A stretch of DNA of 64,000 nucleotides, taken from an uncultured Litoreibacter sp. GTDB lineage: Bacteria > Pseudomonadota > Alphaproteobacteria > Rhodobacterales > Rhodobacteraceae. Position numbers and translations under genes: made by a program. This document shows, piece after piece, positions 4,284 through 45,090 of this stretch. The stretch lies in contig CANLUY010000004.1 of NCBI GenBank assembly GCA_947494435.1, forward strand, positions 8,106 to 72,105. The letters run 5' to 3'. The notes beneath the pieces were generated by a model. It was not told the DNA's origin, ran no database searches, and worked only from the letters and a program-made list of their open reading frames with translations. Every line of letters starts with the position of its first letter. The stretch's first letter is position 1.

Positions 4284-4323
4284 GGCTAATACTTGGTAAA
4301 ATGAATTGTCGTTAAGTGTTCCT

Positions 4324-4353
4324 GCTGTCGCCCGGAAACGGGCGGCAGCTTTT
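4324..4353. terminator. Likely bidirectional intrinsic terminator
   Basis: GCTGTCGCCCG-gaaa-CGGGCGGCAGC followed by TTTT between convergent genes. Confidence 0.7.
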
Positions 4354-4364
4354 AAACTCTCTGG

Positions 4365-8964: not shown

Positions 8965-10105
8965 GACACGCAGCCCAAAAGAGATCGAACGCGAGATTGA
9001 AGAGCAGCGATCGGATCTAACCTCCAATCTGGAGGATTTGCAGGATAAGTTCTCCCTCGACACAGTCGTACGTCAAATCAGTGACCAGTTCCGCGAACAC
9101 GGTGGCGATATGGGGCGCTCGATCTCCAATCAGGTGAAAGCCAACCCAATCCCACTGGCATTGACCGGCATCGGTTTGGCATGGCTGATGTTCGGGAGTT
9201 CTCAGCGGCCCCAGTCCGAGCCGCGAACCTCTGATGCGTTCGATTACGACAGGTACAGTGACGTTGAGCGCGATTTCCAACGTGACCGCAAGGCACGCGG
9301 GCTGCCAGACACTGCGCCAACCGCATACGGCTCACCGACGTCTTCAATGCCGTCTTGGGCACAGGACGACAACTTGGACAATGGCTCAACAGTCAGTCAG
9401 AAGCTGGCCACCGGGGTGGAGACCGCAAAAACCAAGGCATCGGATGGCGTTGATGCCGCCAGAGACGGCATGGCAGCCGCAAGCGCATCTGCGCGCGATG
9501 CTGCATCTTCTGCCGGGGCAAAGATTGGAGATGCGGCCACTTCTGTGAAGTCTGCTGTTGGGACAGCCTCGCAATCTGCGAAGGAAAGCTTGTCTTCTGC
9601 TGGCAACCGCATCGCAGAGGGGACTGAAGCCCTGACCGAAGAGGGTCGGCAACGCGTCATTGCAGCGCGCCAAAAGGCATTGGCGTTGCGCCGCTCGGCC
9701 GCACGGTCAGTTAACGAGGGAACGGATGCCGCTGCTGACTTCTATGATCGGCAGCCGCTTGTCGTTGGCGCGCTCGCTCTGGCAGTCGGTGCGGCCCTGG
9801 GCGGTGCGTTACCTCGCACCAAGAGAGAGGACGATCTGATGGGATCTCAGAGTGACAACCTGTTCGATCAGGCTGAGCGCATCTTTGAGGAAGAGAAGGC
9901 CAAAGCGCTTTCTGTGGCCGGCACTGTAAAAGATGAAGTCAAGGACATTGCAGCTGAGACACGGGCCGACTTGGACAGTGGTGCGCCCAGTGACAAGTCT
10001 GCGGTTGAGGCAATTGGCGATATGGCCAAAGACACAGCAACGCGCGTGTCAGACAAAGCAAAGTCAGAGGCCCAGGAAAAAAATCTTGGCAAGCCAAGCC
10101 CCTGA
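8954..10105 (+). CDS. DUF3618-domain protein with LEA-like Ala/Ser/Lys-rich repeats
   Basis: RSPKEIEREIEEQRSDL N-terminus, ANPIPLALTGIGLAWLM, QPLVVGALALAVGAALG, LPRTKRED. Confidence 0.8.
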   Translation: MTNETRSPKEIEREIEEQRSDLTSNLEDLQDKFSLDTVVRQISDQFREHGGDMGRSISNQVKANPIPLALTGIGLAWLMFGSSQRPQSEPRTSDAFDYDRYSDVERDFQRDRKARGLPDTAPTAYGSPTSSMPSWAQDDNLDNGSTVSQKLATGVETAKTKASDGVDAARDGMAAASASARDAASSAGAKIGDAATSVKSAVGTASQSAKESLSSAGNRIAEGTEALTEEGRQRVIAARQKALALRRSAARSVNEGTDAAADFYDRQPLVVGALALAVGAALGGALPRTKREDDLMGSQSDNLFDQAERIFEEEKAKALSVAGTVKDEVKDIAAETRADLDSGAPSDKSAVEAIGDMAKDTATRVSDKAKSEAQEKNLGKPSP

Positions 10106-25344: not shown

Positions 25345-25698
25345 ATGAACTGGGACATCGAAGCACCAAATGTGGTTACGGAAGCACGTTTCCGCGAACT
25401 CGTGGAAAGTGGCGACAGCGCTGAAATCCTCTGCCAGGAATCGGCACATAAGAAGGGCCCCAGCTACTACGGGGTCTGGATCATGCGCGTCGTCTCTGAC
25501 GAGGGCGTGGAAAAGCTACTGGTCACGGCCCGTACCCGCACGACCTACAACGATATCAAGATCCGCGAGTTCAAAACCATCACGGGCGTGGTGTCCTTCC
25601 TCATGGGGATCGGTTTCTCTCATGCCGATGTCCCGCTCGAAGAAGGCCAGCGAACAACGCACAAGCTGGCCGCGACTGACAAAGGCGGCGGCAAGTAA
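25345..25698 (+). CDS. Hypothetical protein, first gene of the virB operon
   Basis: 117-aa ORF with T4SS-like codon usage, overlapping the transglycosylase start region. Confidence 0.7.
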
Positions 25699-26356
25699 CC
25701 TTCTCCTTGTCTGGTATCTCGCGGGTCCCGCCACTGCTCAGATGGTATTGGTCATGGAGAGCGACGGTTCTCTGACCCCGTCCCACTCCCAGGACAGCTT
25801 TGCCCGCAACTATAACGACGGTATCGGTCAGGGGTTCGCTGCTGATGAGCTGGCGATCCTTGGCGACCGAGAAACTGAACAAGAAGACATTCAATTGGCG
25901 GCCCTCTCGCGGCCCGCTCCTCTACCCCGCGCTGATGTTCTGGCGGCCATCGAGGCCACCGCCCTTCGCTACGCCGGTCATCCCGGGTTGCGGCGCACGG
26001 ATCTCTCGGTTCGTGATTGGCTGACGCTCTACCGTGCCAATATCGAAGTCGAGAGTGCCTACCGACAGGATGCGGTCTCGAGCGCTGGTGCAATTGGCCT
26101 CGGGCAGTTGATGCCTGCAACGGCGCGCGATCTAGGTGTAGACCCGCATGATCCGTTGCAGAACCTCGATGGCTCCGCCCGCTATCTCGCGATGATGCTG
26201 GAGGCGTTCGGCGATCCGCGCCTGGCGCTCGCGGCATACAACGCTGGCCCGGATGCGGTCCGCCAGTATGGTGGCATTCCCCCCTACCGAGAAACCCAGA
26301 ACCACGTGGCCAGTGTCATGGCCGTCGTGGCCCGATTGGAAGGATCAAATTCATGA
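25676..26356 (+). CDS. virB1: VirB1-like lytic transglycosylase (start approximate)
   Basis: SLT motifs [27 protein letters not shown]; signal-peptide-like segment ending AGPATAQ. Confidence 0.85.
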
Positions 26357-26646
26357 GACAGATTTCAAACCTATTCGTCGCCTCACTGGCGCTCTTCCTG
26401 CTCCTCGCAGAGCCGGCCCTTGCTCAAAGCATCGATCTCTCTCCGATCCAAAGCCTGTTGCAGGGTATCGTCGATGCGCTGACCGGCCCGCTTGGCGTTG
26501 TCATCGCGACGCTCGCTGTTCTCGGCGTTTTTTTGAGCTGGTTCTTCAATATCATCGATCTCCGCCAGGCGCTTTGGGTGCTTGTCGGCATTGCAGGTGT
26601 CGCTGCCGCTCCCACCATCGTTGCCGCGGTCTTTGCCGGTGGCTGA
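26353..26646 (+). CDS. virB2: VirB2/TrbC pilin
   Basis: Signal peptide, two hydrophobic helices, position before virB3/virB4. Confidence 0.88.
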
Positions 26647-26917
26647 GCGCGCGCCCCTCTTTCTGGGTCTTGTGCGCCCGCCCAAGCTTCTGGGCCTGCC
26701 CATCATGTACGCAATGGTCTGGCTCTTCGGCTCGGTGCTTCTCTTCGTCTGGGTCCAACACATCGCCGTGCTGGGCGTGACCGCCCTGCTTTATCCCGTG
26801 CTTTGGAAGGCGGCGGACTGGGACCCGCGCTTCATCGACGTGATGATGACGGCGCTGCAGGAGACACCGCCGACGCGGAACCGCAGCATTCACGGCGGGG
26901 ACAGCTATGCCCCGTGA
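26639..26917 (+). CDS. virB3: VirB3
   Basis: PLFLGLVRPPKLLGLP, two TMs, DPRF; GTG start. Confidence 0.88.
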   Translation: MAERAPLFLGLVRPPKLLGLPIMYAMVWLFGSVLLFVWVQHIAVLGVTALLYPVLWKAADWDPRFIDVMMTALQETPPTRNRSIHGGDSYAP

Positions 26918-29270
26918 CGAAGCGGTCGATCTCCGCACGATGACGCCAGACTGGTATGCCCGCGAAACCCGCCTCGCGCATATGCTGCCGTACGTCAGCC
27001 TGGTCGATGACCGCACTGTGCGGACGCGGGTGAACGAGCTTTTCCAGTGCATCCGGCTCGACGGGGTCAACAGCTACACGACGGATGATGACTATCTCGA
27101 CAAGGTGACGGCGCTCTTTGCCCGGATCATCGCGCAGCTCGGGCCGGAGTTCAGCTACTACGTCCACAAAGTCTCAAAAGCAATCACGCCGGATCTCGAA
27201 CCAGTGCGCGAGGACAGTTTTGCAGGAGAAGTCGACCGGCTCTGGCGCGCGAAACTCGAAACCAGCGGCCTGCGCGACAAGACCTTGACCCTCACGGTCA
27301 TTCACCGCCCGCCCCCGAAAAGCATTCTGCCCTTCCTCAATCGCAGCGCCCCGAACCGGCTTAAGGAGGCAACGGAGAAGCGCCTACGCCGTCTGGGCGA
27401 GGCCGTGAATGTCTTCCTCTCTGGCCTGACAGAGCTGAACCCGCGCGTACTAACCGCCAAGAGTGGTGAGTTGATCGGCTTTCTGGGTGCCCTCAACACC
27501 GGCCAGGAATTGCCGCTCTATCCGGCAAACACCTACGGCTTTCTGTCATTCAACGTGGCCAACACTCGCGTAACGTTTCAAGGCGATCACTTCGAGCTCA
27601 CCGAAGGCGTCGTGGGCCATCGCTACGGCAAGAGCTTCACCATCGGGGAATACTCCGAAGCCACCTCCTGCACCATGTTCGACATGCTGAACCTGCCCGT
27701 CGATATGATCGTCACGCATTCCTTCACGCCGATCAATTCGAACCTCATGGCGGGTCGGATCAAGCGGCAAAAGCGCCAGATGCAGGCCAGCCAGGACGCG
27801 GCGCTCTCACTCATGGAAGCGCTCGACATCGCGGCCGATGATCTGGAGGCCAAGCGCCAAAGCTTCGGCGAGCACCACATGGTCGTGACAATCTTCTGTG
27901 ACACGCTCGACGAGCTACAGACACTGAGCGCCGAGATCGTCAACGCGGCCGCCGCCGAAGGTGTAAAGATGATCGGCGAGCGGGTCGCGGCCAAGGCACA
28001 TTACCTGAGCCAGCATCCCGGCAACCAGCCCAAGCGCGTGCGTGCCAGCGCGATCACCAATCGCAACTTCGCGGATTTCGCGGCGTTTCATCGGACCCAG
28101 CTCGGCAAACCAGCGGAGAAAACGCCTTGGGGCAAGATCATCACCTACCTGCCCACGCCCGAGCAGAGCGCGTACCGATTCTCTTACCACGAGCAAGGCA
28201 GCCCCAAGAAAGAACCGACCAGCGGGCATACACTGATCATGGGGCGGCCCGGGTCTGGCAAATCGGTGCTCTCAGCATTCCTCATGACACAAGCTCGTCG
28301 AGCAGGGGCGCGGATCTTCGTCTTCGATTACCGTCTCGGTATGGAGATGGCGGTCCGCGCCAATGGCGGGCGCTACGCGTCTTTGAAAGCCGGACAGCCC
28401 ACAGGCCTTAACCCGCTCTGGACCGAGACTGATGCGCGCGGCACAGCATGGCTCTCGGATTGGCTCGCCACCCTGCTTTATCGTGCCGACAAGCCGCTCA
28501 CGCCGGCGCAGACCAACCGCATCCAGGAGGTCGTGCGCCAGAACGCGCAAGCCACAAACCCGGCCCTGCGGAACTGGCGGGATTTTGCGTCGCTGTTCGT
28601 GTCGACCGATGATGGCGGCGATCTGCACCAGCGCCTGTTTGAGTGGACCGAAGAGGGCCGCTACGGCTGGATCTTCGGGCAGACGCTGGAAGACACCTTC
28701 TCGCTGAAGGGCGATGTGGTGGGCTTCGATCTGACCGGCATTCTCGACAGCGAGGGAGAGAAGGAGCGGATGGCCGTCCTTTCCTATCTCTTTCGCCGGG
28801 TCGAGCGCGAGATCGAGGATCGTCGTCCCACGATCATCGTCATCGACGAGGCATGGAAGGCGCTCGACAATGCGTATTTCGCAGAGCGGCTCTCAAACTG
28901 GCTGGTGACCGCACGCAAACAAAACACCGTCGCGGTGATGATGACACAATATGCTAGCCAGCTCGAGCGCACCCGAACCGGCAAGACCATCGTCGAGGCC
29001 GTGCCGACGCAAATCCTCCTCCCGAACATCCGCGCCCATGCTGCCGATTATGCGATGTTGAACCTCTATGAGAAGGAACTCGACGTGCTTCTCAATACCG
29101 GCAGCGACAGCCGCCTCGCCCTCATCCGCGATGATCAGGGCTCCATCGTCGTCGATACCGATCTGAGCGCCCTTGGGCCAAATCTCACCATCCTCGGCGG
29201 CATGGAGAAAGGCGAGGCGCTGGTCGGTGCCGGTTACCGCGACCGCCCAGACTTTTGGAGGCTTTCATGA
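26907..29270 (+). CDS. virB4: VirB4 ATPase
   Basis: Walker A GRPGSGKS, Walker B IIVIDEAW, ARKQN, MTQY. Confidence 0.95.
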   Translation: MPRDEAVDLRTMTPDWYARETRLAHMLPYVSLVDDRTVRTRVNELFQCIRLDGVNSYTTDDDYLDKVTALFARIIAQLGPEFSYYVHKVSKAITPDLEPVREDSFAGEVDRLWRAKLETSGLRDKTLTLTVIHRPPPKSILPFLNRSAPNRLKEATEKRLRRLGEAVNVFLSGLTELNPRVLTAKSGELIGFLGALNTGQELPLYPANTYGFLSFNVANTRVTFQGDHFELTEGVVGHRYGKSFTIGEYSEATSCTMFDMLNLPVDMIVTHSFTPINSNLMAGRIKRQKRQMQASQDAALSLMEALDIAADDLEAKRQSFGEHHMVVTIFCDTLDELQTLSAEIVNAAAAEGVKMIGERVAAKAHYLSQHPGNQPKRVRASAITNRNFADFAAFHRTQLGKPAEKTPWGKIITYLPTPEQSAYRFSYHEQGSPKKEPTSGHTLIMGRPGSGKSVLSAFLMTQARRAGARIFVFDYRLGMEMAVRANGGRYASLKAGQPTGLNPLWTETDARGTAWLSDWLATLLYRADKPLTPAQTNRIQEVVRQNAQATNPALRNWRDFASLFVSTDDGGDLHQRLFEWTEEGRYGWIFGQTLEDTFSLKGDVVGFDLTGILDSEGEKERMAVLSYLFRRVEREIEDRRPTIIVIDEAWKALDNAYFAERLSNWLVTARKQNTVAVMMTQYASQLERTRTGKTIVEAVPTQILLPNIRAHAADYAMLNLYEKELDVLLNTGSDSRLALIRDDQGSIVVDTDLSALGPNLTILGGMEKGEALVGAGYRDRPDFWRLS

Positions 29271-29434
29271 TTCGTACCCTGTTTCTTCTCACCGCGCTCG
29301 GCGCTTTGGCCTCCTGCGCCCAGTACCGGGCACCGCAAGCCAACTGCTTCACCTTTCTTGCCGCAGTGGCACCGGTTGCGCCGGATTGCACGTTCACGCC
29401 CCTTGGTGCACCGGAGGGTGACATTGAGGTCTAA
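29267..29434 (+). CDS. 55-aa lipoprotein (VirB7-like or entry-exclusion candidate)
   Basis: MIRTLFLLTALGALASCAQYRAPQANC...; lipobox LASC; ATGA overlap with virB4 stop; not in ORF track. Confidence 0.7.
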   Translation: MIRTLFLLTALGALASCAQYRAPQANCFTFLAAVAPVAPDCTFTPLGAPEGDIEV

Positions 29435-30578
29435 GTTGCCCCATATCCTGACGCTTTGCCTGCTCCCCAGTCTCGCCCTGTCCCAAGGTGTGCCAACTAA
29501 TGACGGCGGGCTGACCGCGCGCGATATCGTCGAGACTGGAGATAGGGAGGTCGACCTCGCGGTCCAGGCCGACAAGCTTGCCGTGCGCGAACTCATCGCC
29601 GAGATCGAACGGGAGCAGCTGGAAACCCTGCAACGCATTCTCGATGCCCAAACCAGCTTCGGCGGTCAGGGCTTGCCGGCCATGGTCTCTGGGCTCGAAA
29701 GCGGCAGCGGCGATCCGGACCGCTCCGTTGAGGCGGTCTACGGAAGTGCCGAAATCGATCCCAACCCCGGCGGCGCGCAGATGTTCGGTGATGCGGCGGA
29801 AAACATCGAGCAACTCATCATCCGCGTGGCTCAAGAGACCAGCGGGTTTGCGGGCGTAGGTCGCGCGGGCCTCTCCCCAGTTCAGTGGCGGGCCCTTCTG
29901 CAGGCGCTCATCTGGCAGGAAAGCCGTTTCACCATCGGTGCCCGCTCGCCGGTAGGGGCCTTCGGCCTCACCCAGATTATGCCGGGCACCGCCAGCGATC
30001 TCGGCATCAACCCGGAATATTATGACAGCCCCTATCTGCAGGTGCATGGCGGCGCACGCTATCTCGCAACGCAACTCAACACCTTCGATGGCAACATCAT
30101 CAACGCGCTCGCAGCTTATAATGCCGGCCCCGGTCGCGTGTTCGAATACGGCGGTGTCCCGCCCTTCCGCGAGACCCAGCACTACGTCCAGGCCATCCCC
30201 GAACGCTACAATCTTTACCTAAGTCGCATCGGCGGGATTGAAGCGCTCGGCACGATCGACCCCGCGCTTCTCGCCAATGCTAACCTCTCGATCACCGGGC
30301 ACAGCGCAGCTTTCTATGGCAACAACTCGCCCGCCGCGATCCGACAGGCCGCCTTGCGCATCGCGGACATCGTCGAGCGGATTTCCGAGACGGAAGACGT
30401 GCAGGAAAGCATCGCGCTCAACACCTATGCCCGCGCCGAACTCGTCCGCCTCGTCGCCGCGCGTATTCGACTTCAGGCGGCGCGTACCCGCGTTCTCTCC
30501 GCCGAGGAATTGGCACAAGCCAGCGCCCGCATGGCCGAGCGGGCGTTCATGGAATTCACGATCAGGGAGATTGATTGA
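29424..30578 (+). CDS. VirB5-like protein with inserted lytic transglycosylase (SLT) domain
   Basis: Central [28 protein letters not shown]; termini align with neighbouring VirB5; TTG start after GGAGG. Confidence 0.8.
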   Translation: MRSKLPHILTLCLLPSLALSQGVPTNDGGLTARDIVETGDREVDLAVQADKLAVRELIAEIEREQLETLQRILDAQTSFGGQGLPAMVSGLESGSGDPDRSVEAVYGSAEIDPNPGGAQMFGDAAENIEQLIIRVAQETSGFAGVGRAGLSPVQWRALLQALIWQESRFTIGARSPVGAFGLTQIMPGTASDLGINPEYYDSPYLQVHGGARYLATQLNTFDGNIINALAAYNAGPGRVFEYGGVPPFRETQHYVQAIPERYNLYLSRIGGIEALGTIDPALLANANLSITGHSAAFYGNNSPAAIRQAALRIADIVERISETEDVQESIALNTYARAELVRLVAARIRLQAARTRVLSAEELAQASARMAERAFMEFTIREID

Positions 30579-31387
30579 TGGGACATTTACTCATGAGAAC
30601 GGCCTTGGCGACGACGCTTGGGATTGGCCTGCATCTTGGCACCCTGTCCCCCGCCCTGGCGCAAGGCGTGCCCGTCGTCGATACCCAGAACATCGCCCAA
30701 AATATCCAGCAGCTCCGGCAGATGATCGAAGACGAGATCCTGCAAAACGAGCAGCTGACGCAGCTCCGCGAACAGCTTGCCACACTCACGGAACAACTTG
30801 GCGAATTGCAACGCACCTATGAGGCGCTGACCCGTCTCGCCGAACTTCCAGAAATCATCCGCACTGAGATGGAGGATGAGCTGAACGGCCTGCTCGACCA
30901 AGAGTTCGGGGACATCCTCGCCACGATCGAGGCCATCAAGACCGGAGACTTCTCTGGCCTCTCCGGCTCCGGCGCGGGCGAGATCGAAACCCAAATGGAT
31001 CGGGTCTTGGCCGATCTCGGCTTTGACGATGACACGCTCTCGGAAATGGCCAACAGCGGCAATCCCGGGGCCAACCGCGTGGCCACGCAAGCCACGACCG
31101 GCGCGCTCGTCTCGGCTGCGGCCCAGAACAGTTACGAGGATGCCGGGCAATCGCTCGAACGGGTCGACCGACTGATCGGGCTGATCGACGACATGGACGA
31201 GCTCAAGGAAAGCGTGGATCTCAATACACGCGTCACAGCGGAACTGGCGATTGCGCTCGTCGCAATGTGGCAGCTCGAAGCGGTGCAAACCGTGGGCGAC
31301 GGCACCGGTGGCGTGATCGATGCCGCCACCATCGCCGAAGAGCAGCGCTTCATGGATTTCACCCTGCCTGAACTCAGTGCAGATTGA
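30578..31387 (+). CDS. virB5: VirB5 minor pilin/tip protein
   Basis: AQGVPVVD, QLTQLREQL coiled coil, KESVDLNTR. Confidence 0.85.
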   Translation: MGHLLMRTALATTLGIGLHLGTLSPALAQGVPVVDTQNIAQNIQQLRQMIEDEILQNEQLTQLREQLATLTEQLGELQRTYEALTRLAELPEIIRTEMEDELNGLLDQEFGDILATIEAIKTGDFSGLSGSGAGEIETQMDRVLADLGFDDDTLSEMANSGNPGANRVATQATTGALVSAAAQNSYEDAGQSLERVDRLIGLIDDMDELKESVDLNTRVTAELAIALVAMWQLEAVQTVGDGTGGVIDAATIAEEQRFMDFTLPELSAD

Positions 31388-31402
31388 TCTGAGGTGTGAC
31401 GC

Positions 31403-32056
31403 GTGGCGAGTGAACAGGACATCATTGAAGAAGAGCTGGTCTATGGTGCCCTGCGCCGTGAACGGCTCTGGCAGCGCCTTGGGCTCATCGGGCTCATCTT
31501 CGGCATTCTCGGATGCCTGAGCGCAGCGGCTATCGCAATTCTCGATGTCGATCCGCCACCTGTGGTCGTGCCCTATGATCCCGCCACCGGCTTTGCCCTG
31601 CCCGAGGCGTCTGTGGGCGCGACGTCGGTCACAGCCAACCAGGCGGTCATCGAGGCGGAGGTCTTCCGCTATGTGACTGACCGCGAGGTCTACAACCAGC
31701 TCGACAATGATCTGCGGATCCGCAGCGTCTTGCGCCGCTCGGACGGGGCGGCCGAGAGCGGGTTACGCCAGATCTGGAACAGCGCAAATGAGAACTACCC
31801 GCCGACGGTCTATGGCCTCAATGCCCGGCTTGATGTGGAAATCCTCAGCATCAACCGCATCGGCACCAATCGCGCCACGGTCCGCCTGCGCAAGCGTCTG
31901 ACATCCATAAATGGCGTCCAGACCGGGCTCTTCACCGCCACGCTTCTTTTCGAGTTCCGCCCTGAGACCCGCCGCTCCATTGATGAGGTATGGACCAATC
32001 CCTTCGGCTTTACCGTGCTCGAATATTCCATCCGCTCCGACAGATTGGAGAACTAG
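31403..32056 (+). CDS. virB8: VirB8
   Basis: Single TM, RYVTDREVY, NPFGFTVLEY. Confidence 0.9.
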   Translation: MASEQDIIEEELVYGALRRERLWQRLGLIGLIFGILGCLSAAAIAILDVDPPPVVVPYDPATGFALPEASVGATSVTANQAVIEAEVFRYVTDREVYNQLDNDLRIRSVLRRSDGAAESGLRQIWNSANENYPPTVYGLNARLDVEILSINRIGTNRATVRLRKRLTSINGVQTGLFTATLLFEFRPETRRSIDEVWTNPFGFTVLEYSIRSDRLEN

Positions 32057-32057
32057 T

Positions 32058-32753
32058 TTGATCAGTAAGTTCTATGTCGCTGGCCTATTTGCCCTATTGC
32101 CCGGCCTCGCCTTCGCCGAAGCCATTCCGCGCGGTGGCCCCAATGACAGCCGCGTACGCTTGGCCACCTACCAGGAGGGCCAGGTCTATCGCCTCAGCGT
32201 GTCGCTCACCCATGTGACCACCATCGAGTTCGGCGAGGGCGAAAGCATCCGCTCGATCATCGCGGGGGACACGGAAGGTTTCGAGATCGACGGCGTTCCG
32301 GGTGGCCAAGCCTTCGCAATCAAGCCCGTCGCACGCGGCGTCCATACCAACGTGACCGTCTATACCAACAGTCGCAGCTACTACTTCAACGTCCAAGAGA
32401 CCGGCAGCTCGACCTTTTACGTGGTCCAGTTCCGCTACCCCGAAGACAATGCGCGGCCCACACGTGCCATTGCGGCACAGGCGCCGAACTACAATTACGG
32501 TGCCAGCGCGCGCGCCGAGTTCACCCCGACCCGCGTCTGGGATGACGGGGCGTTTACGTATTTTGAATTCCCGCGGAACGCGCCGGTGCCTGCGATCTTT
32601 CGCTACACGAATGGTCGCGAGCGGACGGTCAACACACAAGCCACCGAGGACGGCGTGATCCGGGTCTCGGGGGTGAACAGGCACTGGGTCCTGCGGATCG
32701 GAGACGAGTTAGTCTGTATCGAGGCCACACCGCCTGCAGAGGTAGGATCATGA
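32058..32753 (+). CDS. virB9: VirB9/TrbG
   Basis: DSRVR..Y, TTIEFGEGE, TNVTVYTNSRSYYF, VWDDGAFTYFEF. Confidence 0.9.
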   Translation: MISKFYVAGLFALLPGLAFAEAIPRGGPNDSRVRLATYQEGQVYRLSVSLTHVTTIEFGEGESIRSIIAGDTEGFEIDGVPGGQAFAIKPVARGVHTNVTVYTNSRSYYFNVQETGSSTFYVVQFRYPEDNARPTRAIAAQAPNYNYGASARAEFTPTRVWDDGAFTYFEFPRNAPVPAIFRYTNGRERTVNTQATEDGVIRVSGVNRHWVLRIGDELVCIEATPPAEVGS

Positions 32754-34129
32754 GCGACACCGGAAACGCGGACCTCGAGAAACGTCTCGCCGCCCTCGAA
32801 CAGGGCAAAGGCTTGAGCTCGCCCCCTGCCCCACGGCGCTCACCGCTGCTCGCTTTGGTCGTCGTCCTCGTGATCGGCGCAGGCGGCGCTCTACTCTATC
32901 TGCTTTCCCAACCCGAGGAAGAGGAAGCCCTTCCCACGGCCACGCCGGACGTGTTCCAAAGCGAAGGCGACGGGTTCGGAGCCATCGAAACTCTCCCCCC
33001 GCCTGAACCCGAGGTCGTGCTGGTCGCACCAGACCCGGTGGAACCGAATGCCGAGCTTCTGGCGCAGCTTGCAGCCCTTCAGGCTCAAATCGAGGAGTTG
33101 CGCAACGCGTCCGAACCGGTGGTCGAAGAAGATACCGCTGCCGCCGAAGCCATCGATGCGCTGACCGCCCAGATCGCGGCGCTGCAATCCGCGTCGGAAA
33201 CCGCGCAACAGCAGTTTCGCGATGAGCTCACGGCGCGTGATCGCGAGCTGGAGCAACTCCGCATGGACCTCGAACTTGCCCAACTCGAGGCCAACCGGCC
33301 CCTTCCGGCACCCATCGGCCCCACCGAGGACGAATTGCGCACGCGGGAAGAAGAGCGGCTGCGCCGCGAGGAAGAGGCACGGCGGCTGGCGGAACTTGAA
33401 CGCCGCGCGGCTGAGGAACGCGCGTTTCAGGAGCGCCGCATTACCTCGCCTACAATCGCTTTTGGCGGCACCTCCGGCGCGAATGAGACGGCCCTAACCG
33501 AACGGACTTTTGGCGAAGTGACGGATTTCGTGCTGAACGGCGCGCTGCCCACGTCCGTGACGCAAGCGGAAGTTATTGCCAATCCGTCAAACACAATTGT
33601 CCAGGGAACGATGATCCAGGCCGTCATGGAAACCGCTCTCGACAGCTCCCTGCCCGGCCAGACCCGCGCTGTGGTCTCCGAAGACGTGTTCAGTTTCGAT
33701 GGCTCCCGCCTTCTGATCCCTCGCGGATCCCGTCTCATCGGGCGCTATCGCTCCGGTGTCGATATCGCGCAGCGTCGGGTCACCATCGCCTGGGACCGGA
33801 TCATCCTGCCCGACAACCAGACCGTCCAAATCAGCTCCTTCGGGGGCGATGAACTTGGCCGCTCCGGCGTCACAGGCTTTGTCGACACCCGGTTCGATGA
33901 ACGCTTTGGCTCGGCGGCGCTGATTTCTCTGATCTCCGCCGCGCCAAGCGCCGCCGCGGCAAACGTACAGGACGAGACCAACGCAGACGTGCTCGAAGAC
34001 GTGGGCGATGATCTCGCCGATGCCACGGACAGCGTGATTGAGGACTACCTCTCCATCGGCCCCGTTATCTATGTCGACCAGGGTGCCCGCGTCACAGTCA
34101 TGGTCGACCGCGATCTGGAGATATTCTGA
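32750..34129 (+). CDS. virB10: VirB10/TrbI with long N-terminal coiled coil
   Basis: GTMIQAVMETALDS, LIPRGSRLIGRY, GFVDTRFDERFG, DQGARVTVMVDRDL. Confidence 0.93.
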   Translation: MSDTGNADLEKRLAALEQGKGLSSPPAPRRSPLLALVVVLVIGAGGALLYLLSQPEEEEALPTATPDVFQSEGDGFGAIETLPPPEPEVVLVAPDPVEPNAELLAQLAALQAQIEELRNASEPVVEEDTAAAEAIDALTAQIAALQSASETAQQQFRDELTARDRELEQLRMDLELAQLEANRPLPAPIGPTEDELRTREEERLRREEEARRLAELERRAAEERAFQERRITSPTIAFGGTSGANETALTERTFGEVTDFVLNGALPTSVTQAEVIANPSNTIVQGTMIQAVMETALDSSLPGQTRAVVSEDVFSFDGSRLLIPRGSRLIGRYRSGVDIAQRRVTIAWDRIILPDNQTVQISSFGGDELGRSGVTGFVDTRFDERFGSAALISLISAAPSAAAANVQDETNADVLEDVGDDLADATDSVIEDYLSIGPVIYVDQGARVTVMVDRDLEIF

Positions 34130-34133
34130 GCCC

Positions 34134-35120
34134 ATGTCGCTGAGCTATCTCCAGACCTCGCTTGATCGGATCGACGCCGCCGCCCGCGACGATGTCATCG
34201 AGATCTGCATCAACCCCGATGGCAGCTGTTGGGGAGAATTCCTGGGCGATCACTTCATGCGAAAACTGGACCAGAAGTTGACCGCAACAGAAGTGAAGGA
34301 CCTCGGCAACCAGATCGCCTCCTCCGCCAATACCACGATGAGCAAGGATCGTCCCATCGTGTCGGTCTCGATCACCTACAAGGGTCGACCGATCCGGGCG
34401 CAGGTCATCACTCCGCCCGCCGTGCTCTCCGCCATGTCAATCAGCCTTCGGTTCTTCTCGAACCTGCCGCTCGCCGGGATCGCGCTTGATTTTCTCTACG
34501 GCAAAGAACGCAAGCTTGAAGAACTCCGCCTCGAGAAAACCCGCGAACTCCGCGAGGTGGTGGCCGCTGGCGTCATCGACGATGCCCTGGCCTTCTGCGT
34601 CGACAACAAGCTCAACATGATCGTCTCGGGTGGCACCTCCACTGGCAAGACCGTCGCCGCGCGCAAGATCCTCTCTCATGTGCCTGCGGAAGAACGCATC
34701 GTCACCATCGAGGAAGCCGCCGAGCTTCTGCCGACCCAGCCGAATGCTGTGACCCTGATCGCCAATCGTGATGCGGAGTTCCAGACAGCCGATGTGCTGC
34801 TCACCGCGACGCTGCGCATGCGCCCCGACCGGATCATCCTCGGCGAGGTGCGCGGCAAGGAGGCCATGACTTTCCTCGAGGCGATTAACACGGGCCATGG
34901 CGGCTCCATGACCACCCTCCATGCCGAAACCCCGCAACTCGCCGTGCAACGCCTGGCTATCGCTGCGCTCAAAACCGAGATCCCGATGACCTATGCCGAC
35001 ATGATCCGGTACATCGAAAATTCCATCGATGTGATCATCCAGGCCGGACGGCACGACGGGAAGCGCGGCATCACAGAATTCTACCTCCCCGGAATAACAG
35101 AGATCGGAGTTTTCCAATGA
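34134..35120 (+). CDS. virB11: VirB11 ATPase
   Basis: GGTSTGKT, TIEEAAEL, LRMRPDRIILGEVR, NTGHGGSMTTLHA. Confidence 0.95.
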   Translation: MSLSYLQTSLDRIDAAARDDVIEICINPDGSCWGEFLGDHFMRKLDQKLTATEVKDLGNQIASSANTTMSKDRPIVSVSITYKGRPIRAQVITPPAVLSAMSISLRFFSNLPLAGIALDFLYGKERKLEELRLEKTRELREVVAAGVIDDALAFCVDNKLNMIVSGGTSTGKTVAARKILSHVPAEERIVTIEEAAELLPTQPNAVTLIANRDAEFQTADVLLTATLRMRPDRIILGEVRGKEAMTFLEAINTGHGGSMTTLHAETPQLAVQRLAIAALKTEIPMTYADMIRYIENSIDVIIQAGRHDGKRGITEFYLPGITEIGVFQ

Positions 35121-35320
35121 AGACCTTCGAATATGAAATCCTCTCTTTTCCGATGGACCGCAAAACAGCGCTCATCGAGATGCAGGCCACCCTCAACAAC
35201 AAAGGCGCAGATGGCTGGGACGTTGTTTCGATCAGCAGCTCTGAGTTCGCCAACATCGGACATACCGCGTTTTTGAAGCGTGAGATCACAAGCAAACAGC
35301 CTTCAAAGACCGCCTTATGA
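35117..35320 (+). CDS. DUF4177-like small protein
   Basis: FEYEIL...LNNKGADGWDVVS motif. Confidence 0.7.
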   Translation: MKTFEYEILSFPMDRKTALIEMQATLNNKGADGWDVVSISSSEFANIGHTAFLKREITSKQPSKTAL

Positions 35321-35730
35321 TGCGTTTCAGATCCCAAACTATCGTCGCTGCGCTGTTGCTGGGTTTAATTGTCCAACCTTCATCTGCGGAGAATGATCTC
35401 ATCCCAAGCATGGAACGAGACTACGACATCTGCCCAAATCGACCGCTTGAACCTGAGTGGATGCAGCAAATCCCGCTCCGCGAGGTCTACCAACGTGTTC
35501 TGGTACAAGACATTTATCGTGCGCAGAGCATGGAAAGGATTGTTGCGACGGGCGAGTGCGCCTGCGCCATTCGCTTTCCGGCTTGGGATGAAGCCGTAAC
35601 CACGTTTCATGACAATTACGCGGATGCGGAACGGTGGGACATGTTGGAAGCCTCAGACACCTACAACCGACGCGCCAACGACCTACGCCCAGAGGCAATG
35701 GAGATCTGCGAAGCTGCGAGCAATTGGTGA
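35317..35730 (+). CDS. Secreted Cys-containing hypothetical protein in the virB operon
   Basis: Signal peptide, four Cys incl. CAC; coupled to neighbours. Confidence 0.7.
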   Translation: MMRFRSQTIVAALLLGLIVQPSSAENDLIPSMERDYDICPNRPLEPEWMQQIPLREVYQRVLVQDIYRAQSMERIVATGECACAIRFPAWDEAVTTFHDNYADAERWDMLEASDTYNRRANDLRPEAMEICEAASNW

Positions 35731-35742
35731 GGTATTTGAGAG

Positions 35743-36819
35743 ATGAGCGTCGTTACGTATTTCGTTGAAACATCTCAGGGTTACCTCGACACTGCCGCCG
35801 AGACTCAGTTCGGTTCGGTGGCAGCGACAGTCGGCACCCTGCTCGTGCTTGGAACGACGCTGGTTGTGATTTTCGTCTTCCTGAATATGATTTATCAGTA
35901 CAAGGCGATGGACGGGCGCACCGCCTTTTGGCTCGCGGTGAAGATCGGTTTGATAGGAATATTTGCGACCAACTGGGTTCAGTTCAACGCCCTCTCTTCT
36001 GCCATTCTAAACGGGATCGACAGCATCGCTGGAGCGCTTGTGGCCTCCGTCGGCGGCGGTGCTCCGGGCCCATCCGGCACCTTCGCGGAAGAATTTGATC
36101 GGCTCATCTCGGAACTCGGTGAATACCTCAATGCGGCGGGGTCAGAGCTCAACTGGATGGCCGGGGCGATGCTCGACATCGTTGGAGTCTTGATGCTTTC
36201 AATCCTGGGTGGTCTGGCAGCATTCATCCTAGTCGCCTCGCGCTTGATGATTGCCCTGCTGATCGGAATCGCGCCCGTGATGATCTTTCTGACGCTCTTT
36301 GATGTCACCAAGGACTACTTTGCCCGCTGGCTATCCGCGTTGGTGTCTTTTGCGATCTACCCGATCGTGGTCGCGGGCGTGTTCGCGACAATCACGGGCG
36401 TGTCATCCGCGCTCATCGGCGAACTCGGTGATCCCGAAGGAGCCACGAATATTGGTGCGCTTATCCCCTTCTTCATGATGGTCCTCATGGCGAAGGGCTT
36501 TATCATCGCGACGCCATTTATCGTTCGCGCAATCTCCGGGAACATCATGATGCCGGCGTTGTCGGGAGGGCTCGCTGGCAGTTATGGCTTCGCCCGTGCT
36601 GCCATGGGAAGCCAGCAGGCCTACAATCGCTTTCTTGTCGGTGGCGCAAGTGGGGCAGAATACGCCGCTCTTCGTGCAAGGCAATTCATCGGGGCACAAC
36701 AGATGCCTCAGCGACCGGGCATGGCGCAGGTTTCGCCCGCCGCGAATAATCCATCCACAGGAACGGGGTCGCGAATGCTGGCGCAGTTGGCAAGGTTGGG
36801 CAGACTAGGGAGGCGATAG
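35743..36819 (+). CDS. virB6: VirB6/TrbL
   Basis: Multi-TM with IAPVMIFLTLFDVTKDYFARW motif; located after virB11. Confidence 0.88.
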   Translation: MSVVTYFVETSQGYLDTAAETQFGSVAATVGTLLVLGTTLVVIFVFLNMIYQYKAMDGRTAFWLAVKIGLIGIFATNWVQFNALSSAILNGIDSIAGALVASVGGGAPGPSGTFAEEFDRLISELGEYLNAAGSELNWMAGAMLDIVGVLMLSILGGLAAFILVASRLMIALLIGIAPVMIFLTLFDVTKDYFARWLSALVSFAIYPIVVAGVFATITGVSSALIGELGDPEGATNIGALIPFFMMVLMAKGFIIATPFIVRAISGNIMMPALSGGLAGSYGFARAAMGSQQAYNRFLVGGASGAEYAALRARQFIGAQQMPQRPGMAQVSPAANNPSTGTGSRMLAQLARLGRLGRR

Positions 36820-43065: not shown

Positions 43066-45090
43066 TTAGCCAACACTGACGCTTTCACTTGCCGTGTTCC
43101 CGCCCTCCGCCATCTTAGTAACTTTGCCTTCTAACTGCTCGAGATCGCTTAGAGCGAGTTCGACCTGACTCACGTCTTCTGCGGACGGATTGTCGAACTC
43201 CAAGTGCGCCTGCGCGTCGAAATCCATCTCGATTTGCCGCTGATGGTCTGCAATCACTGCCGCGCAAACTTGCGGCTGTTTACGTAGTCCTTCCATCGTT
43301 GTCGTAGCTGGTCTGTCGCGCCGTGACAGGGCCTCGCCAGCTTTTGCGTCAAATGAACCATGAGACCCTGCGCTGCTTGGCGCCGCCGTTCTTTCACCTT
43401 TTGCGGCATCACCTCTCGGTCTGTCCTTTGAGCCAACGGGAAAAGGCATCTCCCCATTCTGCGCCGCATGAATCCTCTTGAAAAACGGATCATCGAAATA
43501 CTGTATCCGCTTGGCCCTCACCGGCATCTGCGCGTCCACGACCACTACAATCTCATCAAGCGGCAACCGGCGCGCCTCATCCTCAGGCAACAATGACGTT
43601 TCCTCCGTCCGCGTCGATTGGCTCCTGCCCTCAAAGGGATTCTTACCGATTGACCGCGACTTGGTGACAACGGTCTTCGTGGTCTTACCAACCGCCTTGC
43701 TGAGTTCCTCGACCGTCTTTTCATCTGACGGTGTGAGATACAGCTTCACGCCCGCGTTCCCTTGCAGCGCCCGGCGGGTGTTCTCCCCGTATATTTCATC
43801 GATGGCTGGGATGGTTTGTGTGACTACGGCGAGATGCCCCCGATAGTGCCGCAGCACCTCAATGCTCTCGGCCACGATCGGCATTTTTCCCAGTCGGTTG
43901 AACTCGTCGAGCATGATCATCACTGGCCATGGCTCATCTGGACCCGGCTCTTTGTCTTGCAGGGCAGACAACAGGTCAGAAAACAGTAGCCGGATGAGTG
44001 GTGCGAGTGGTTTCACCATCAGGGGCTGAACGACCAGATAGACGCTGAACGGCTTCTTGCGGATTGTGCGGAAATCAAAATCTGACACTGCCGTTGCCTC
44101 GTCAATCGCCGGGTTCTGCCATTGATCCAAGCCTGACGTCATCAGGAGCGATACATAGGACGTCAGCGTATCGTTGTTTGTAGAGGCCAGCCGTGTAAAT
44201 ATCAGCTTCGCGGCTTTGTTCTCGATCTCGTGAGACCGCGCCAGATATTCCTTCTGCTTGTTCCCGCCTGAAGCCGCGATGCGATAGATTTCACCTAAGG
44301 TCGGTCTCTTGCGCTGGAACGCCAGCAACCCGGCTGCCACGAACAGATCAATACCGCCCTTCAGAAGGCCTTGGACACGGTCATTGTCGTTCTGCAGAAA
44401 CAGCGTTGCCAAGAGTTGCAACTCCATCTGCTGTCGCGCTGGATCCCTCAGATCATTAATGCGCAGCAGCGGGTTATAGCGATGGGTTCGATGGCCGTCC
44501 CAATCTGTCGGCGCAACCCGGTAAACCTTGTCACCCTGTGCCACCCGATGGCGCGCTGTCGCCTCATAGCATTCACCTTTCACGTCCAGCGTCACAGCTG
44601 ACCCTTGCCATGTCAGCAGGTTCGGGATGACAAATCCTGTCGTCTTACCCCGTCCCGTCGGGGCCACGATCAGGGCATGGGGAAAGGTCGTTGAGCAAAG
44701 AAACGGTGCCTTGGACTTTGGCTTTCCAAGTTTGCCGATTACAAAGCCGGTTCCCGGTTTTCCGAAGAACCCATTGCGCTTTAACTCGCGACGCGTCTGC
44801 CAATGCGTGTATCCAAAGCGGGTGAGCGCTGAGCCAGACATTGCAAGGCTCATCATAAGGCCCGCCACCCCTGCCCCGCCCATGATGAGGTTAACCAGTT
44901 GGAAATCATCCGGCCGGAACGCCCGCAGGCTCCAATAGTTCTTGGCGATGTAAAAGAAGTCGATCTCCGCCCCGAAGCCTATGTCCCGGTACGTCAGCAC
45001 CGCCGAAGCGATGACATAGCCGATGGCAATCGCGACGAGCGTGACCAAGACCACCCCGATCGCGAGCCGAGTTTTGCCCATGGTCCCCAT
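43066..45090 (-). CDS. virD4: VirD4/TraG type IV coupling protein
   Basis: N-terminal TMs, APTGRGKT, LDVKGE, MLDEFNRLG, VTQTIP. Confidence 0.95.
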   Translation of the reverse strand: MGTMGKTRLAIGVVLVTLVAIAIGYVIASAVLTYRDIGFGAEIDFFYIAKNYWSLRAFRPDDFQLVNLIMGGAGVAGLMMSLAMSGSALTRFGYTHWQTRRELKRNGFFGKPGTGFVIGKLGKPKSKAPFLCSTTFPHALIVAPTGRGKTTGFVIPNLLTWQGSAVTLDVKGECYEATARHRVAQGDKVYRVAPTDWDGHRTHRYNPLLRINDLRDPARQQMELQLLATLFLQNDNDRVQGLLKGGIDLFVAAGLLAFQRKRPTLGEIYRIAASGGNKQKEYLARSHEIENKAAKLIFTRLASTNNDTLTSYVSLLMTSGLDQWQNPAIDEATAVSDFDFRTIRKKPFSVYLVVQPLMVKPLAPLIRLLFSDLLSALQDKEPGPDEPWPVMIMLDEFNRLGKMPIVAESIEVLRHYRGHLAVVTQTIPAIDEIYGENTRRALQGNAGVKLYLTPSDEKTVEELSKAVGKTTKTVVTKSRSIGKNPFEGRSQSTRTEETSLLPEDEARRLPLDEIVVVVDAQMPVRAKRIQYFDDPFFKRIHAAQNGEMPFPVGSKDRPRGDAAKGERTAAPSSAGSHGSFDAKAGEALSRRDRPATTTMEGLRKQPQVCAAVIADHQRQIEMDFDAQAHLEFDNPSAEDVSQVELALSDLEQLEGKVTKMAEGGNTASESVSVG

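What the first reader, a model, noticed from the sequence alone, without database searches (positions are those of the whole stretch)
29424..31387. VirB5 paralogue with an inserted lytic transglycosylase: a possible pilus-tip peptidoglycan hydrolase
Seen: the termini of the 29424 protein align with adjacent VirB5 (N-term QGVPTND vs QGVPVVD; C-term RIADIVERISETEDVQESIALNTYARAEL...FMEFT vs RVDRLIGLIDDMDELKESVDLNTRVTAEL...FMDFT). The middle is an intact SLT domain (QES, GLTQIMP, AAYNAGPG, ETQHYV). A separate VirB1-like SLT already exists at 25676. Established: VirB5 is the pilus-tip protein. Inference: the second muramidase may be carried on the pilus tip to open the recipient cell wall; I do not know of this being described.
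Basis: partly seen in the sequence, partly recalled or inferred. Interest (0 to 1): 0.8.

Follow-up and report, generated by a model that had tools for sequence, protein, structure and literature searches.

The report
VirB5 paralogue carrying a cell-wall-cutting enzyme
A conjugation (type IV secretion) operon of marine Rhodobacterales plasmids encodes, next to its normal pilus-tip protein VirB5, a second VirB5 copy with a complete peptidoglycan-cutting enzyme domain spliced into its middle; this conserved, apparently undescribed chimera could show how the transfer machine gets through a cell wall.

Summary
Window 29424-30578 (+) encodes a 384-aa exported protein. Its residues 21-127 and 269-384 together form a full-length VirB5 paralogue. 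With the SLT domain removed, the family aligns end to end with the co-encoded VirB5 family (hhalign 99.7%, E 2.7e-25; reversed or shuffled controls E 0.02-0.85). Residues 128-268 are an intact family-1 lytic transglycosylase domain, 45% identical to the operon's own VirB1.

The chimera is not a one-off. The order VirB4, small lipoprotein, chimera, VirB5 recurs in every related locus examined, down to 37% identity. A separate VirB1 is present in all 25 loci that reach far enough upstream. The protein occurs on 165 PLSDB plasmids, mostly Rhodobacterales with a few Hyphomicrobiales. Databases call it only "lytic transglycosylase domain-containing protein", and I found no paper describing the architecture.

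My best-supported reading is that the VirB5 scaffold docks the enzyme on the VirB5/VirB6 stalk. There it would cut the donor's own peptidoglycan on the machine axis, much as FlgJ does for the flagellar rod. Travel to the pilus tip remains possible.

Verdict: a new variant of known kinds, with moderately high interest.

The parts
25676..26356 (+). VirB1-like lytic transglycosylase, the operon's separate SLT protein
   Evidence: Pfam SLT E 3.9e-18. It is 45% identical over 136 aa to the SLT inserted in the chimera. It is conserved upstream of virB2 in all 25 loci that extend that far.
26353..29270 (+). virB2 (26353-26646), virB3 (26582-26917) and virB4 (26907-29270)
   Evidence: Pfam TrbC/VirB2 E 2.7e-21 and VirB3 E 9.6e-25. 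The VirB4 ORF is, and its homologues are annotated CagE_TrbE_VirB in related loci.
29267..29434 (+). 55-aa lipoprotein ORF, a candidate VirB7-like protein. Its start overlaps the virB4 stop and its end overlaps the chimera's start.
   Evidence: MIRTLFLLTALGALASC has a lipobox. Lipobox ORFs occupy the same position in L001, L002, L003 and L005. No Pfam hit. It corresponds to the 55-aa Dshi_3642 listed in PMC8831719.
29424..29483 (+). Chimera, signal peptide (residues 1-20, predicted cleavage ALS|QG)
   Evidence: Read from the sequence. It aligns with the signal peptides of VirB5 and TrwJ.
29484..29804 (+). Chimera, N-terminal VirB5-like part (residues 21-127): QGVPxxD motif, long helix 28-78, short linker helices
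   Evidence: P24 and D27 are invariant across the family. TrwJ hit E 1.1e-7. hhalign columns align with the VirB5 N-terminus. AF2 predicts helix 28-78.
29805..30227 (+). Chimera, inserted VirB1-type SLT (family-1 lytic transglycosylase) domain, residues 128-268
   Evidence: Pfam SLT E 1.8e-20. E166, S167, G181, Q184, Y232, N233, G235 and Y254 are invariant. AF2 pLDDT is mostly above 90 (87-98 per 10-residue block). Foldseek top hits are Slt, LtgA, MltF and MltD. BLASTP E 1e-28 to the operon's VirB1.
30228..30578 (+). Chimera, C-terminal VirB5-like part (residues 269-384; two long helices 280-322 and 326-376; DLNTYARAE-type motif; F-x-x-F end) plus stop codon
   Evidence: BLASTP E 7e-7 to VirB5 170-267. 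PF07996 profile positions 132-195. TraC 105-199 at E 0.14. hhalign. AF2 helices.
30578..31387 (+). Canonical virB5. The ATG overlaps the chimera's TGA (TGATG), with AGGGAG upstream; the ORF finder's first start is TTG 30575.
   Evidence: PF07996 E 1.6e-19. TIGR02791 E 5.4e-14. TrwJ E 1.9e-6. Sequence.
31403..36819 (+). virB8 (31403-32056), virB9 (ORF 31911-32753, true start probably near 32050), virB10 (32750-34129), virB11 (about 34131-35120), two small ORFs (35117-35320, 35317-35730) and a displaced virB6 (35743-36819)
   Evidence: Pfam VirB8 E 2.5e-50 and TrbL/VirB6 E 7.9e-36. ORFs. Homologues identified by tblastn in related loci.
43066..46952 (-). virD4 coupling protein (43066-45090) and VirD2-like relaxase (45090-46952), showing that the system is conjugative
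   Evidence: Pfam T4SS-DNA_transf E 4.8e-86 and Relaxase E 1.1e-13.

Best explanation
Shown: the gene at 29424-30578 encodes a Sec-exported chimera. A full-length VirB5 paralogue carries, in its middle region (the stretch between the N-terminal helix and the two C-terminal helices, where VirB5 has its globular part), a complete VirB1-type SLT lytic transglycosylase domain with all catalytic motifs. It is translationally coupled to a small lipoprotein gene upstream and to the canonical virB5 downstream. It is a fixed component of a lineage of alphaproteobacterial conjugative T4SSs, always alongside a separate VirB1 and a normal VirB5. Inferred: the VirB5-like helices act as a targeting and assembly module. 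They would place the enzyme on the VirB5/VirB6 stalk, either as a subunit mixed into the VirB5 pentamer or bound to it or to VirB6. Peptidoglycan would then be cleaved exactly on the central axis, where the stalk and later the growing pilus must cross the donor's wall. This parallels FlgJ, the flagellar rod cap with a fused muramidase. VirB1 would make the wider opening for the outer-membrane core complex. If the chimera stays in the tip complex as the pilus grows, it would also reach the recipient, but that is a further, untested step.
For: Architecture: hhalign end-to-end match of the SLT-deleted family to VirB5 (E 2.7e-25; controls). PF07996 hits in 10-11 of 16 members. TrwJ is the top non-SLT PDB hit. 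AF2 predicts one long N-terminal and two long C-terminal helices around a confident SLT core. SLT motifs are invariant, and the domain is 45% identical to the operon's VirB1. Core-component status: the order VirB4, lipoprotein, chimera, VirB5 holds in loci down to 37% identity. VirB1 and the chimera co-occur in 25 of 25 loci that extend upstream. The chimera scaffold and VirB5 form two clades with the same internal groupings of loci (L003+L004, L001+L002), which indicates one old duplication followed by co-inheritance. Gene overlaps imply coupled translation. Retention of the mature N-terminal QGVPxxD motif shared with VirB5 and TrwJ suggests the same kind of assembly as VirB5. Mechanistic context from the literature: the VirB5 pentamer sits on VirB6 in the donor periplasm and is pushed outward as the pilus grows (PMC9259494). 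VirB1 opens peptidoglycan for assembly, and its C-terminal product VirB1* is needed for T-pilus formation (PMC12624023; PMC3202754). The FlgJ rod-cap and muramidase precedent is from my own knowledge.
Against: There is no experimental or structural evidence that the chimera contacts VirB5 or VirB6. The fold-level test of the termini failed: Foldseek on the full model returns only SLT enzymes, and the SLT-deleted single-sequence model had pLDDT 44.9. AF2 confidence for the N-terminal helix is only 60-68. The window protein alone scores below Pfam's PF07996 threshold (18.1 vs 24.7 bits). Nothing here distinguishes donor-side from recipient-side action. VirB1 is dispensable in several T4SSs (PMC12857230), so a second transglycosylase might add little.
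Confidence: 0.5

Rival explanations
1. One reading: the chimera is a subunit of the pilus-tip complex, leaves the donor on the growing pilus, and its SLT domain cuts the recipient's peptidoglycan to open a path for DNA transfer. This would be a T4SS counterpart of the phage tail-tip lysozymes and of the V. cholerae VgrG-3 spike.
For: The scaffold is a full VirB5 paralogue that keeps the N-terminal motif. VirB5 is at the pilus tip, and whether it is a pore former or a 'cell wall-piercing device' remains open (PMC12624023). A separate VirB1 is always present and could cover the donor-side job. The scaffold parts evolve fast, like VirB5, VirB6 and VirB9 (for example L014: N 46%, C 60%, VirB5 53%, against SLT 78% and VirB11 74%), as expected for exposed or interacting parts. 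SLT domains fused to injected phage proteins (T7 gp16, a tape-measure protein) appear among the PDB hits.
Against: There are no localisation data. To reach recipient peptidoglycan the tip would first have to cross the recipient's outer membrane. Five added domains of about 15 kDa each on a pentamer that must pass the arches, I-layer and O-layer channel (PMC9259494) may not fit unless the stoichiometry is low. The same architecture is equally explained by donor-side action.
Confidence: 0.2
2. It is simply a second periplasmic VirB1-type transglycosylase. The VirB5-derived arms serve only for stability, oligomerisation or auto-inhibition and do not place it in the stalk or the pilus.
For: The SLT domain is the most conserved part (75-79% where the arms are 41-62%). 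Other T4SSs use two peptidoglycan hydrolases (Neisseria gonorrhoeae AtlA and LtgX, from my own knowledge). All databases annotate it only as a lytic transglycosylase.
Against: The arms are retained at full VirB5 length, with VirB5's N-terminal and C-terminal motifs, across lineages as divergent as 37% identity. The gene always sits directly before virB5 and is translationally coupled to it. A purely vestigial scaffold would be expected to decay or be lost.
Confidence: 0.2
3. The SLT domain acts mainly as a peptidoglycan-binding anchor or adhesin rather than as an enzyme, fixing the stalk to the wall or the tip to a target.
For: Inactive VirB1 homologues have been proposed as adhesins in Gram-positive systems (PMC12857230).
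Against: The catalytic Glu-Ser and the other family-1 motifs are invariant in all 16 diverse members. That argues for retained catalysis.
Confidence: 0.05

Closest known systems
VirB5 / TraC (pKM101, PDB 1R8I) / TrwJ (R388, PDB 7O3V)
   Same: It has a signal peptide followed by Q-G-[IV]-P-x-x-D, one long N-terminal and two long C-terminal helices, a DLNT-type motif and an aromatic C-terminal end. It sits in the virB operon after virB4. The profile alignment is end to end.
   Different: It carries a 141-residue enzyme domain in the middle region. It is a second copy beside a normal VirB5, and it falls below Pfam's threshold as a single sequence. Pentamer formation and tip location are unknown.
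VirB1 (T4SS lytic transglycosylase; the 'GAMMA' class of Gram-negative systems)
   Same: It has the same SLT family-1 domain, 45% identical to the operon's own VirB1, with the same YGG[IV]PP[FY].ETQ tail motif. It is exported to the periplasm.
   Different: The domain is embedded inside a VirB5 scaffold instead of being a free soluble protein. It is encoded after virB4 rather than at the start of the operon, and it co-exists with VirB1 in every locus.
FlgJ (flagellar rod cap fused to a muramidase) with the FlgJ/SltF pair of Rhodobacter, and EtgA-EscI in the T3SS (my own knowledge; sltF is listed in Rhodobacterales flagellar clusters, PMC12363192)
   Same: A peptidoglycan-cleaving domain is physically joined, or recruited, to the distal cap of an axial structure that has to grow through the cell's own wall.
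   Different: The scaffold protein is unrelated and the machine is different. Here the link to the axial structure is inferred from homology only.
Spike- or tip-borne wall hydrolases: V. cholerae VgrG-3, phage T4 gp5, T7 gp16, SLT-bearing tape-measure proteins
   Same: A cell-puncturing tip or ejected protein is fused to a peptidoglycan hydrolase that acts on the target cell. T7 gp16 and a tape-measure protein share the SLT domain.
   Different: Those act on the target's wall, which has been demonstrated. No delivery to recipients is shown here, and conjugation should not kill the recipient.
VirB1* of Agrobacterium (secreted C-terminal fragment of VirB1 needed for T-pilus formation)
   Same: It is a precedent for a functional link between the T4SS transglycosylase gene product and pilus (VirB2/VirB5) biogenesis (PMC3202754).
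   Different: VirB1* is not the enzyme domain and is not homologous to VirB5. In the window's VirB1 the SLT domain lies near the C-terminus (118-208 of 226), so no VirB1*-like tail is evident.

Membership tests
VirB5/TrbJ family (Pfam PF07996, TIGR02791) | Significant sequence match to the family model | tested here: inconclusive
   The window protein alone scores 18.1 bits, E 0.0036, below the 24.7-bit cut-off, and only the C-terminal third of the profile matches. However, 10 of 16 diverse homologues hit PF07996 (best E 5.8e-9), and 11 of 16 do so after the SLT is deleted.
VirB5/TrbJ family (Pfam PF07996, TIGR02791) | Colinear homology over the whole VirB5 length (N-terminal helix, middle region, two C-terminal helices) | tested here: met
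   hhalign of the SLT-deleted family against six VirB5s gives 99.7%, E 2.7e-25, query 3-237 of 238 and template 8-266 of 269. Controls are 0.022 to 0.85, and the result is 6.3e-18 without the signal peptide and N-terminal motif.
VirB5/TrbJ family (Pfam PF07996, TIGR02791) | Signal peptide followed by the conserved mature N-terminus Q-G-[IV]-P-x-x-D | tested here: met
   The window protein has ALS|QGVPTND. P24 and D27 are invariant in 16 members. The motif aligns to TrwJ AQGIPVFD at E 1.1e-7.
VirB5/TrbJ family (Pfam PF07996, TIGR02791) | Three-long-helix bundle fold as in TraC (1R8I) and TrwJ (7O3V) | tested here: inconclusive
   AF2 (pLDDT 77.8, pTM 0.64) predicts helices 28-78, 280-322 and 326-376. 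Foldseek returned only SLT enzymes.
VirB5/TrbJ family (Pfam PF07996, TIGR02791) | Pentamer on VirB6 in the stalk, and location at the pilus tip | not testable with these tools
   This needs multimer modelling, cryo-EM or cryo-ET, or immunolabelling.
Family-1 lytic transglycosylases / VirB1 (Pfam PF01464 SLT) | SLT domain above the curated threshold | tested here: met
   73.1 bits against a 21.3-bit cut-off, E 1.8e-20, residues 155-250. PDB sequence hits to LtgA, Slt and Slt70 at E about 1e-10. Foldseek probability 1.00 to Slt and LtgA.
Family-1 lytic transglycosylases / VirB1 (Pfam PF01464 SLT) | Catalytic Glu-Ser and motifs G-L-x-Q, A-Y-N-x-G and the conserved Tyr | tested here: met
   E166, S167, G181, Q184, Y232, N233, G235 and Y254 are invariant across 16 members at 32-50% identity. 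QESRF aligns to QESRF of LtgA.
Family-1 lytic transglycosylases / VirB1 (Pfam PF01464 SLT) | Enzymatic formation of 1,6-anhydro-muropeptides | not testable with these tools
   This needs a biochemical assay.
Minimised VirB/VirD4-type conjugative T4SS (MPF-T) | Operon with VirB1-B4, B5, B6, B8-B11 plus a coupling protein and a relaxase | tested here: met
   Pfam hits and ORFs. Of the 106 PLSDB plasmids sharing this DNA, 102 are typed as conjugative. Conjugation by the closely related D. shibae plasmids has been shown experimentally (PMC4886583).

The most novel reading that the evidence does not exclude
The chimera is a genuine subunit of the VirB5 tip pentamer and is carried out on the conjugative pilus. 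That would make it the first enzymatic pilus tip in conjugation: a T4SS 'drill head' that cuts peptidoglycan first in the donor and then in the recipient, giving direct molecular support to the idea that VirB5 tips are cell-wall-piercing devices.
Probability: 0.2. Interest if true: 0.85.

Novelty: new variant of a known kind. Interest (0 to 1): 0.65.

Why it matters
How a T4SS stalk and pilus get through the donor's peptidoglycan is an acknowledged open question. So is how the tip deals with the recipient's envelope (PMC12624023). VirB1 is usually a free, often dispensable enzyme whose site of action is inferred rather than seen. Here evolution has covalently joined the enzyme to the protein that caps the stalk and pilus, and has kept the arrangement beside a normal VirB1 and a normal VirB5 across deep divergence. 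That argues for a distinct, position-specific job.

The system is experimentally tractable. It sits on plasmids of Dinoroseobacter shibae and Phaeobacter inhibens, which already have conjugation assays and transposon libraries. A few mutants and one localisation experiment would show where a VirB5-family protein places a wall-cutting activity.

The finding also exposes annotation problems. The protein is filed only as a generic lytic transglycosylase, and many RefSeq models start 22 codons too late and lose the signal peptide.

Tried and rejected
- **Foldseek on the full-length AF2 model against the PDB.** The top 50 hits were all SLT enzymes, so the VirB5 fold of the arms could not be tested this way.
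- **AF2 on the SLT-deleted family alignment.** The SLT-deleted window sequence alone was accepted but gave pLDDT 44.9. Its Foldseek hits are meaningless (best E 0.45).
- **L005 and a missing VirB1.** From the called genes I first thought locus L005 lacked a VirB1, which would have made the chimera the only transglycosylase there. tblastn found a VirB1-like SLT stretch at L005:6485-6781 that the gene caller had missed, so I dropped this inference.
- **Partial matches in the genome scan.** Matches outside Rhodobacterales (L073, L052, L034, L050, L064) turned out to be ordinary SLT proteins without VirB5-like arms.
- **Remote proteins in the same operon slot.** These come from Sinorhizobium (P0191) and a metagenome (P0227). 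Their N-terminal QVPVLD matches their own VirB5 (E 0.004). The C-terminal homology is only suggestive (hhalign E 4e-4, probability 35%), so membership is left open.
- **NCBIfam.** It has no specific family for this protein, only sub-threshold generic transglycosylase models.
- **Literature.** Full-text searches for VirB5 combined with transglycosylase, fusion or chimeric found no description of the architecture. Roseobacter papers call the gene 'lytic glycosylase' (PMC9426580).
- **Toxin or effector reading.** I considered and rejected it. The gene is a fixed, translationally coupled structural-operon member, and no candidate immunity gene was noticed beside it in the gene listings, though I did not search for one.
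Full report
**What is at the coordinates.** The finding lies inside a complete VirB/VirD4-type conjugation system.
- On the + strand the order is VirB1-like SLT (25676-26356), VirB2, VirB3, VirB4 (to 29270), a 55-aa lipoprotein ORF (29267-29434), the gene in question (29424-30578), VirB5 (30578-31387), VirB8, VirB9, VirB10, VirB11, two small ORFs, and a displaced VirB6 (35743-36819).
- The VirD4 coupling protein and a VirD2-like relaxase lie at 43-47 kb on the other strand.
- The DNA is 87-88% identical to conjugative plasmids of Roseivivax, Sulfitobacter, Roseovarius, Dinoroseobacter and Phaeobacter. 106 PLSDB plasmids match, and 102 of them are typed conjugative.
It gives a 384-aa protein with a typical signal peptide ending ALS|QG.

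- Pfam places an SLT domain at residues 155-250 (E 1.8e-20). It also gives a weak VirB5/TrbJ (PF07996) hit at residues 304-367 against the C-terminal end of that profile.
- BLASTP of the protein against its downstream neighbour aligns 286-383 with 170-267 (E 7e-7) and 1-79 with 7-88 (E 0.002).
- The neighbour is a clear VirB5: PF07996 E 1.6e-19, and R388 TrwJ E 1.9e-6.

**Test at family level.** An exhaustive search of cluster representatives gave full-length homologues down to 37% identity.
- In an alignment of 16 of them, P24 and D27 of the QGVPxxD motif are invariant, and so are the SLT residues E166, S167, G181, Q184, Y232, N233, G235 and Y254.
- Ten of the 16 hit PF07996 individually, best E 5.8e-9.
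- The family profile's best non-SLT hit in the PDB is TrwJ (E 2.7e-5). TraC is matched at 105-199 by the C-terminal part (E 0.14).
- I cut out residues 128-268 and joined the two arms (243 residues, the size of an ordinary VirB5). The resulting profile hits TrwJ as the top PDB sequence (E 1.1e-7).
- By hhalign, that profile aligns with six VirB5 proteins encoded next to family members at 99.7% probability, E 2.7e-25, over 231 columns. This covers essentially both profiles end to end.
- Reversing the VirB5 alignment gives E 0.022 and five column shuffles give 0.26-0.85. Removing the signal peptide and the N-terminal motif from both sides still gives E 6.3e-18. The similarity is homology, not composition.

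**The inserted domain.**
- Residues 123-258 are 45% identical (E 1e-28) to the catalytic domain of the VirB1 encoded at the head of the same operon. The identity includes the YGG[IV]PP[FY]RETQ tail.
- The AF2 model (34-sequence alignment, mean pLDDT 77.8, pTM 0.64) shows one long helix (28-78), a few short helices, a very confident SLT core (pLDDT mostly above 90), and then two long helices (280-322, 326-376).
- This is the one-plus-two long-helix layout known for TraC and TrwJ (my recollection of Yeo et al. 2003, plus PMC9259494), with the enzyme in the middle region.
- The fold of the arms could not be confirmed by structure search. Foldseek on the full model returns only Slt, LtgA, MltF, MltD and MltE. 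The arms-only single sequence folded too poorly to use.

**Conservation and context.**
- The protein family is large: the best 120 database clusters are all at least 69% identical (most 80% or more), and some stand for hundreds of sequences. It is named only 'lytic transglycosylase domain-containing protein', with rare exceptions such as 'Type IV system transglycosylase'.
- The C-terminal VirB5-like arm alone finds 165 PLSDB plasmids. Nearly all are Rhodobacterales, but they include Brucella (Ochrobactrum) pituitosa pOAAA2, which has the same operon.
- In one-genome-per-species contigs, the full-length matches are all Rhodobacterales apart from one MAG labelled only Pseudomonadota.
- In metagenomic loci whose chimera is only 37-46% identical, the order VirB4, small lipoprotein, chimera, VirB5 is kept, whether VirB6 follows VirB5 or sits after VirB11.
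- A tblastn survey of 32 loci found a VirB1-like SLT upstream of virB2 in all 25 loci that carry the chimera and extend that far. This corrected an earlier impression that one locus lacked VirB1.
- A distance tree separates chimera scaffolds from VirB5s into two clades with the same internal groupings of loci (L003+L004, L001+L002). One old duplication and insertion was therefore followed by co-inheritance.
- Gene overlaps (ATGA at virB4/lipoprotein, 11 nt at lipoprotein/chimera, TGATG at chimera/virB5) indicate coupled translation.
- More remote proteins in the same slot occur in Sinorhizobium and in a metagenome. They share the N-terminal motif with their own VirB5, but their C-terminal homology is only suggestive.

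**How it most likely works.**
- What is shown: an exported protein with an apparently active lytic transglycosylase domain, held between the arms of a VirB5 paralogue. It is maintained beside both VirB1 and VirB5 and is therefore probably not redundant with either.
- What is established elsewhere: VirB5 forms a pentamer mounted on the VirB6 pentamer, the periplasmic stalk. The growing pilus pushes it out through the arches and the outer-membrane complex, and it ends up at the pilus tip (PMC9259494; PMC12624023). VirB1 opens peptidoglycan for assembly, and in Agrobacterium its C-terminal product is needed for T-pilus formation.
- My inference (confidence about 0.5): the VirB5-like arms dock the enzyme into or onto the VirB5/VirB6 stalk. 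The wall is then cut precisely on the axis that the stalk and pilus must cross. This is the logic of FlgJ, where the flagellar rod cap carries the muramidase (own knowledge).
It has analogues in VgrG-3, T4 gp5 and T7 gp16. It faces an unresolved steric question, because five extra domains would have to pass the outer-membrane channel, and it has no supporting data.
- A free second VirB1-like enzyme with a merely stabilising scaffold (about 0.2) and a non-catalytic anchor (about 0.05) are the remaining rivals. The first is weakened by full-length conservation of the scaffold and its motifs. The second is weakened by the invariant catalytic residues.

**Comparison with known families and novelty.**
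- By sequence the protein belongs both to the VirB5 lineage (profile level met, single-sequence Pfam threshold not met, fold and oligomeric state untested) and to family-1 lytic transglycosylases (met).
- Reviews describe Gram-negative VirB1 proteins as soluble periplasmic enzymes, and multi-domain, membrane-anchored hydrolases only for Gram-positive systems (PMC12857230).
- Four full-text searches and the Roseobacter plasmid papers found no description of a VirB5-SLT chimera. NCBIfam has no dedicated model.
- I rate it a new variant of known kinds, not a new kind of system.
- It matters because it offers a natural, genetically tractable handle on where and when peptidoglycan is breached during T4SS and pilus biogenesis, and possibly during recipient entry.

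Noticed in passing
window 29267-29434 (+); also L001 9805-10032, L002 about 4240-4365, L003 4734-4913, L005 9813-10001: A conserved small ORF of about 41-75 aa lies between virB4 and the chimera. It has a lipoprotein signal (window: LLTALGALASC) and two further conserved Cys, and it overlaps both neighbouring genes. It is a candidate VirB7-like lipoprotein for a T4SS lineage in which no VirB7 is annotated. It has no Pfam hit and corresponds to Dshi_3642 in D. shibae.
   Followed up: partly
window 29424-29492; proteins P0007, P0009, P0012-P0015 and others: Many RefSeq/PGAP models of this protein are 362 aa and start at the GTG for V23 ('MPTND...'). That start removes the signal peptide and splits the QGVPxxD motif. 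The TTG at 29424 with a GGAGG Shine-Dalgarno sequence gives the 384-aa form, which most metagenomic gene calls use.
   Followed up: partly
protein P0039 (435 aa, ENA contig of 3881 nt): One homologue carries a tandem duplication of about 51 residues covering the linker and the first helix of the SLT domain (…GDAAEN[VI]EQLIIRVA.ET.G… occurs twice). This suggests the N-terminal junction of the insertion tolerates length changes.
   Followed up: no
window 35117-35320 and 35317-35730 (+): Two small ORFs lie between virB11 and the displaced virB6. One is 67 aa with a weak DUF4177 match. The other is 137 aa with a signal peptide and several Cys and has no Pfam hit. Their roles in this T4SS are unknown.
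   Followed up: no
window 25345-25698 (+): A 117-aa ORF lies just upstream of, and overlapping, the VirB1 gene and has no Pfam hit. It corresponds to the D. shibae protein listed as 'virB family protein' (Dshi_3637), whose transposon mutant grew slowly in PMC8831719.
   Followed up: no
L086 (Sinorhizobium medicae contig) 8205-9293 and L087 10001-11191: SLT proteins of 362-396 aa occupy the same slot (after virB4, before virB5) in Sinorhizobium and related T4SS loci. They start with Q[VI]PV.D like their own VirB5 and have a D.NtG.R motif where VirB5 has DLNTR. They may be a second, more diverged branch of VirB5-SLT chimeras.
   Followed up: partly
window 26000-34000 compared with the flanks: The virB operon has 61-63% G+C, against 50-58% in the surrounding 64-kb window. 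This is consistent with a mobile module of different origin from the neighbouring sugar-uptake and regulatory genes.
   Followed up: no
L005 6485-6781 (+): A VirB1-like SLT coding stretch was missed by the public gene call, which placed a 76-aa gene on the opposite strand. In L003 the VirB1 gene is called at only 116 aa. VirB1 genes in this lineage therefore seem prone to mis-calling or to N-terminal variability.
   Followed up: partly
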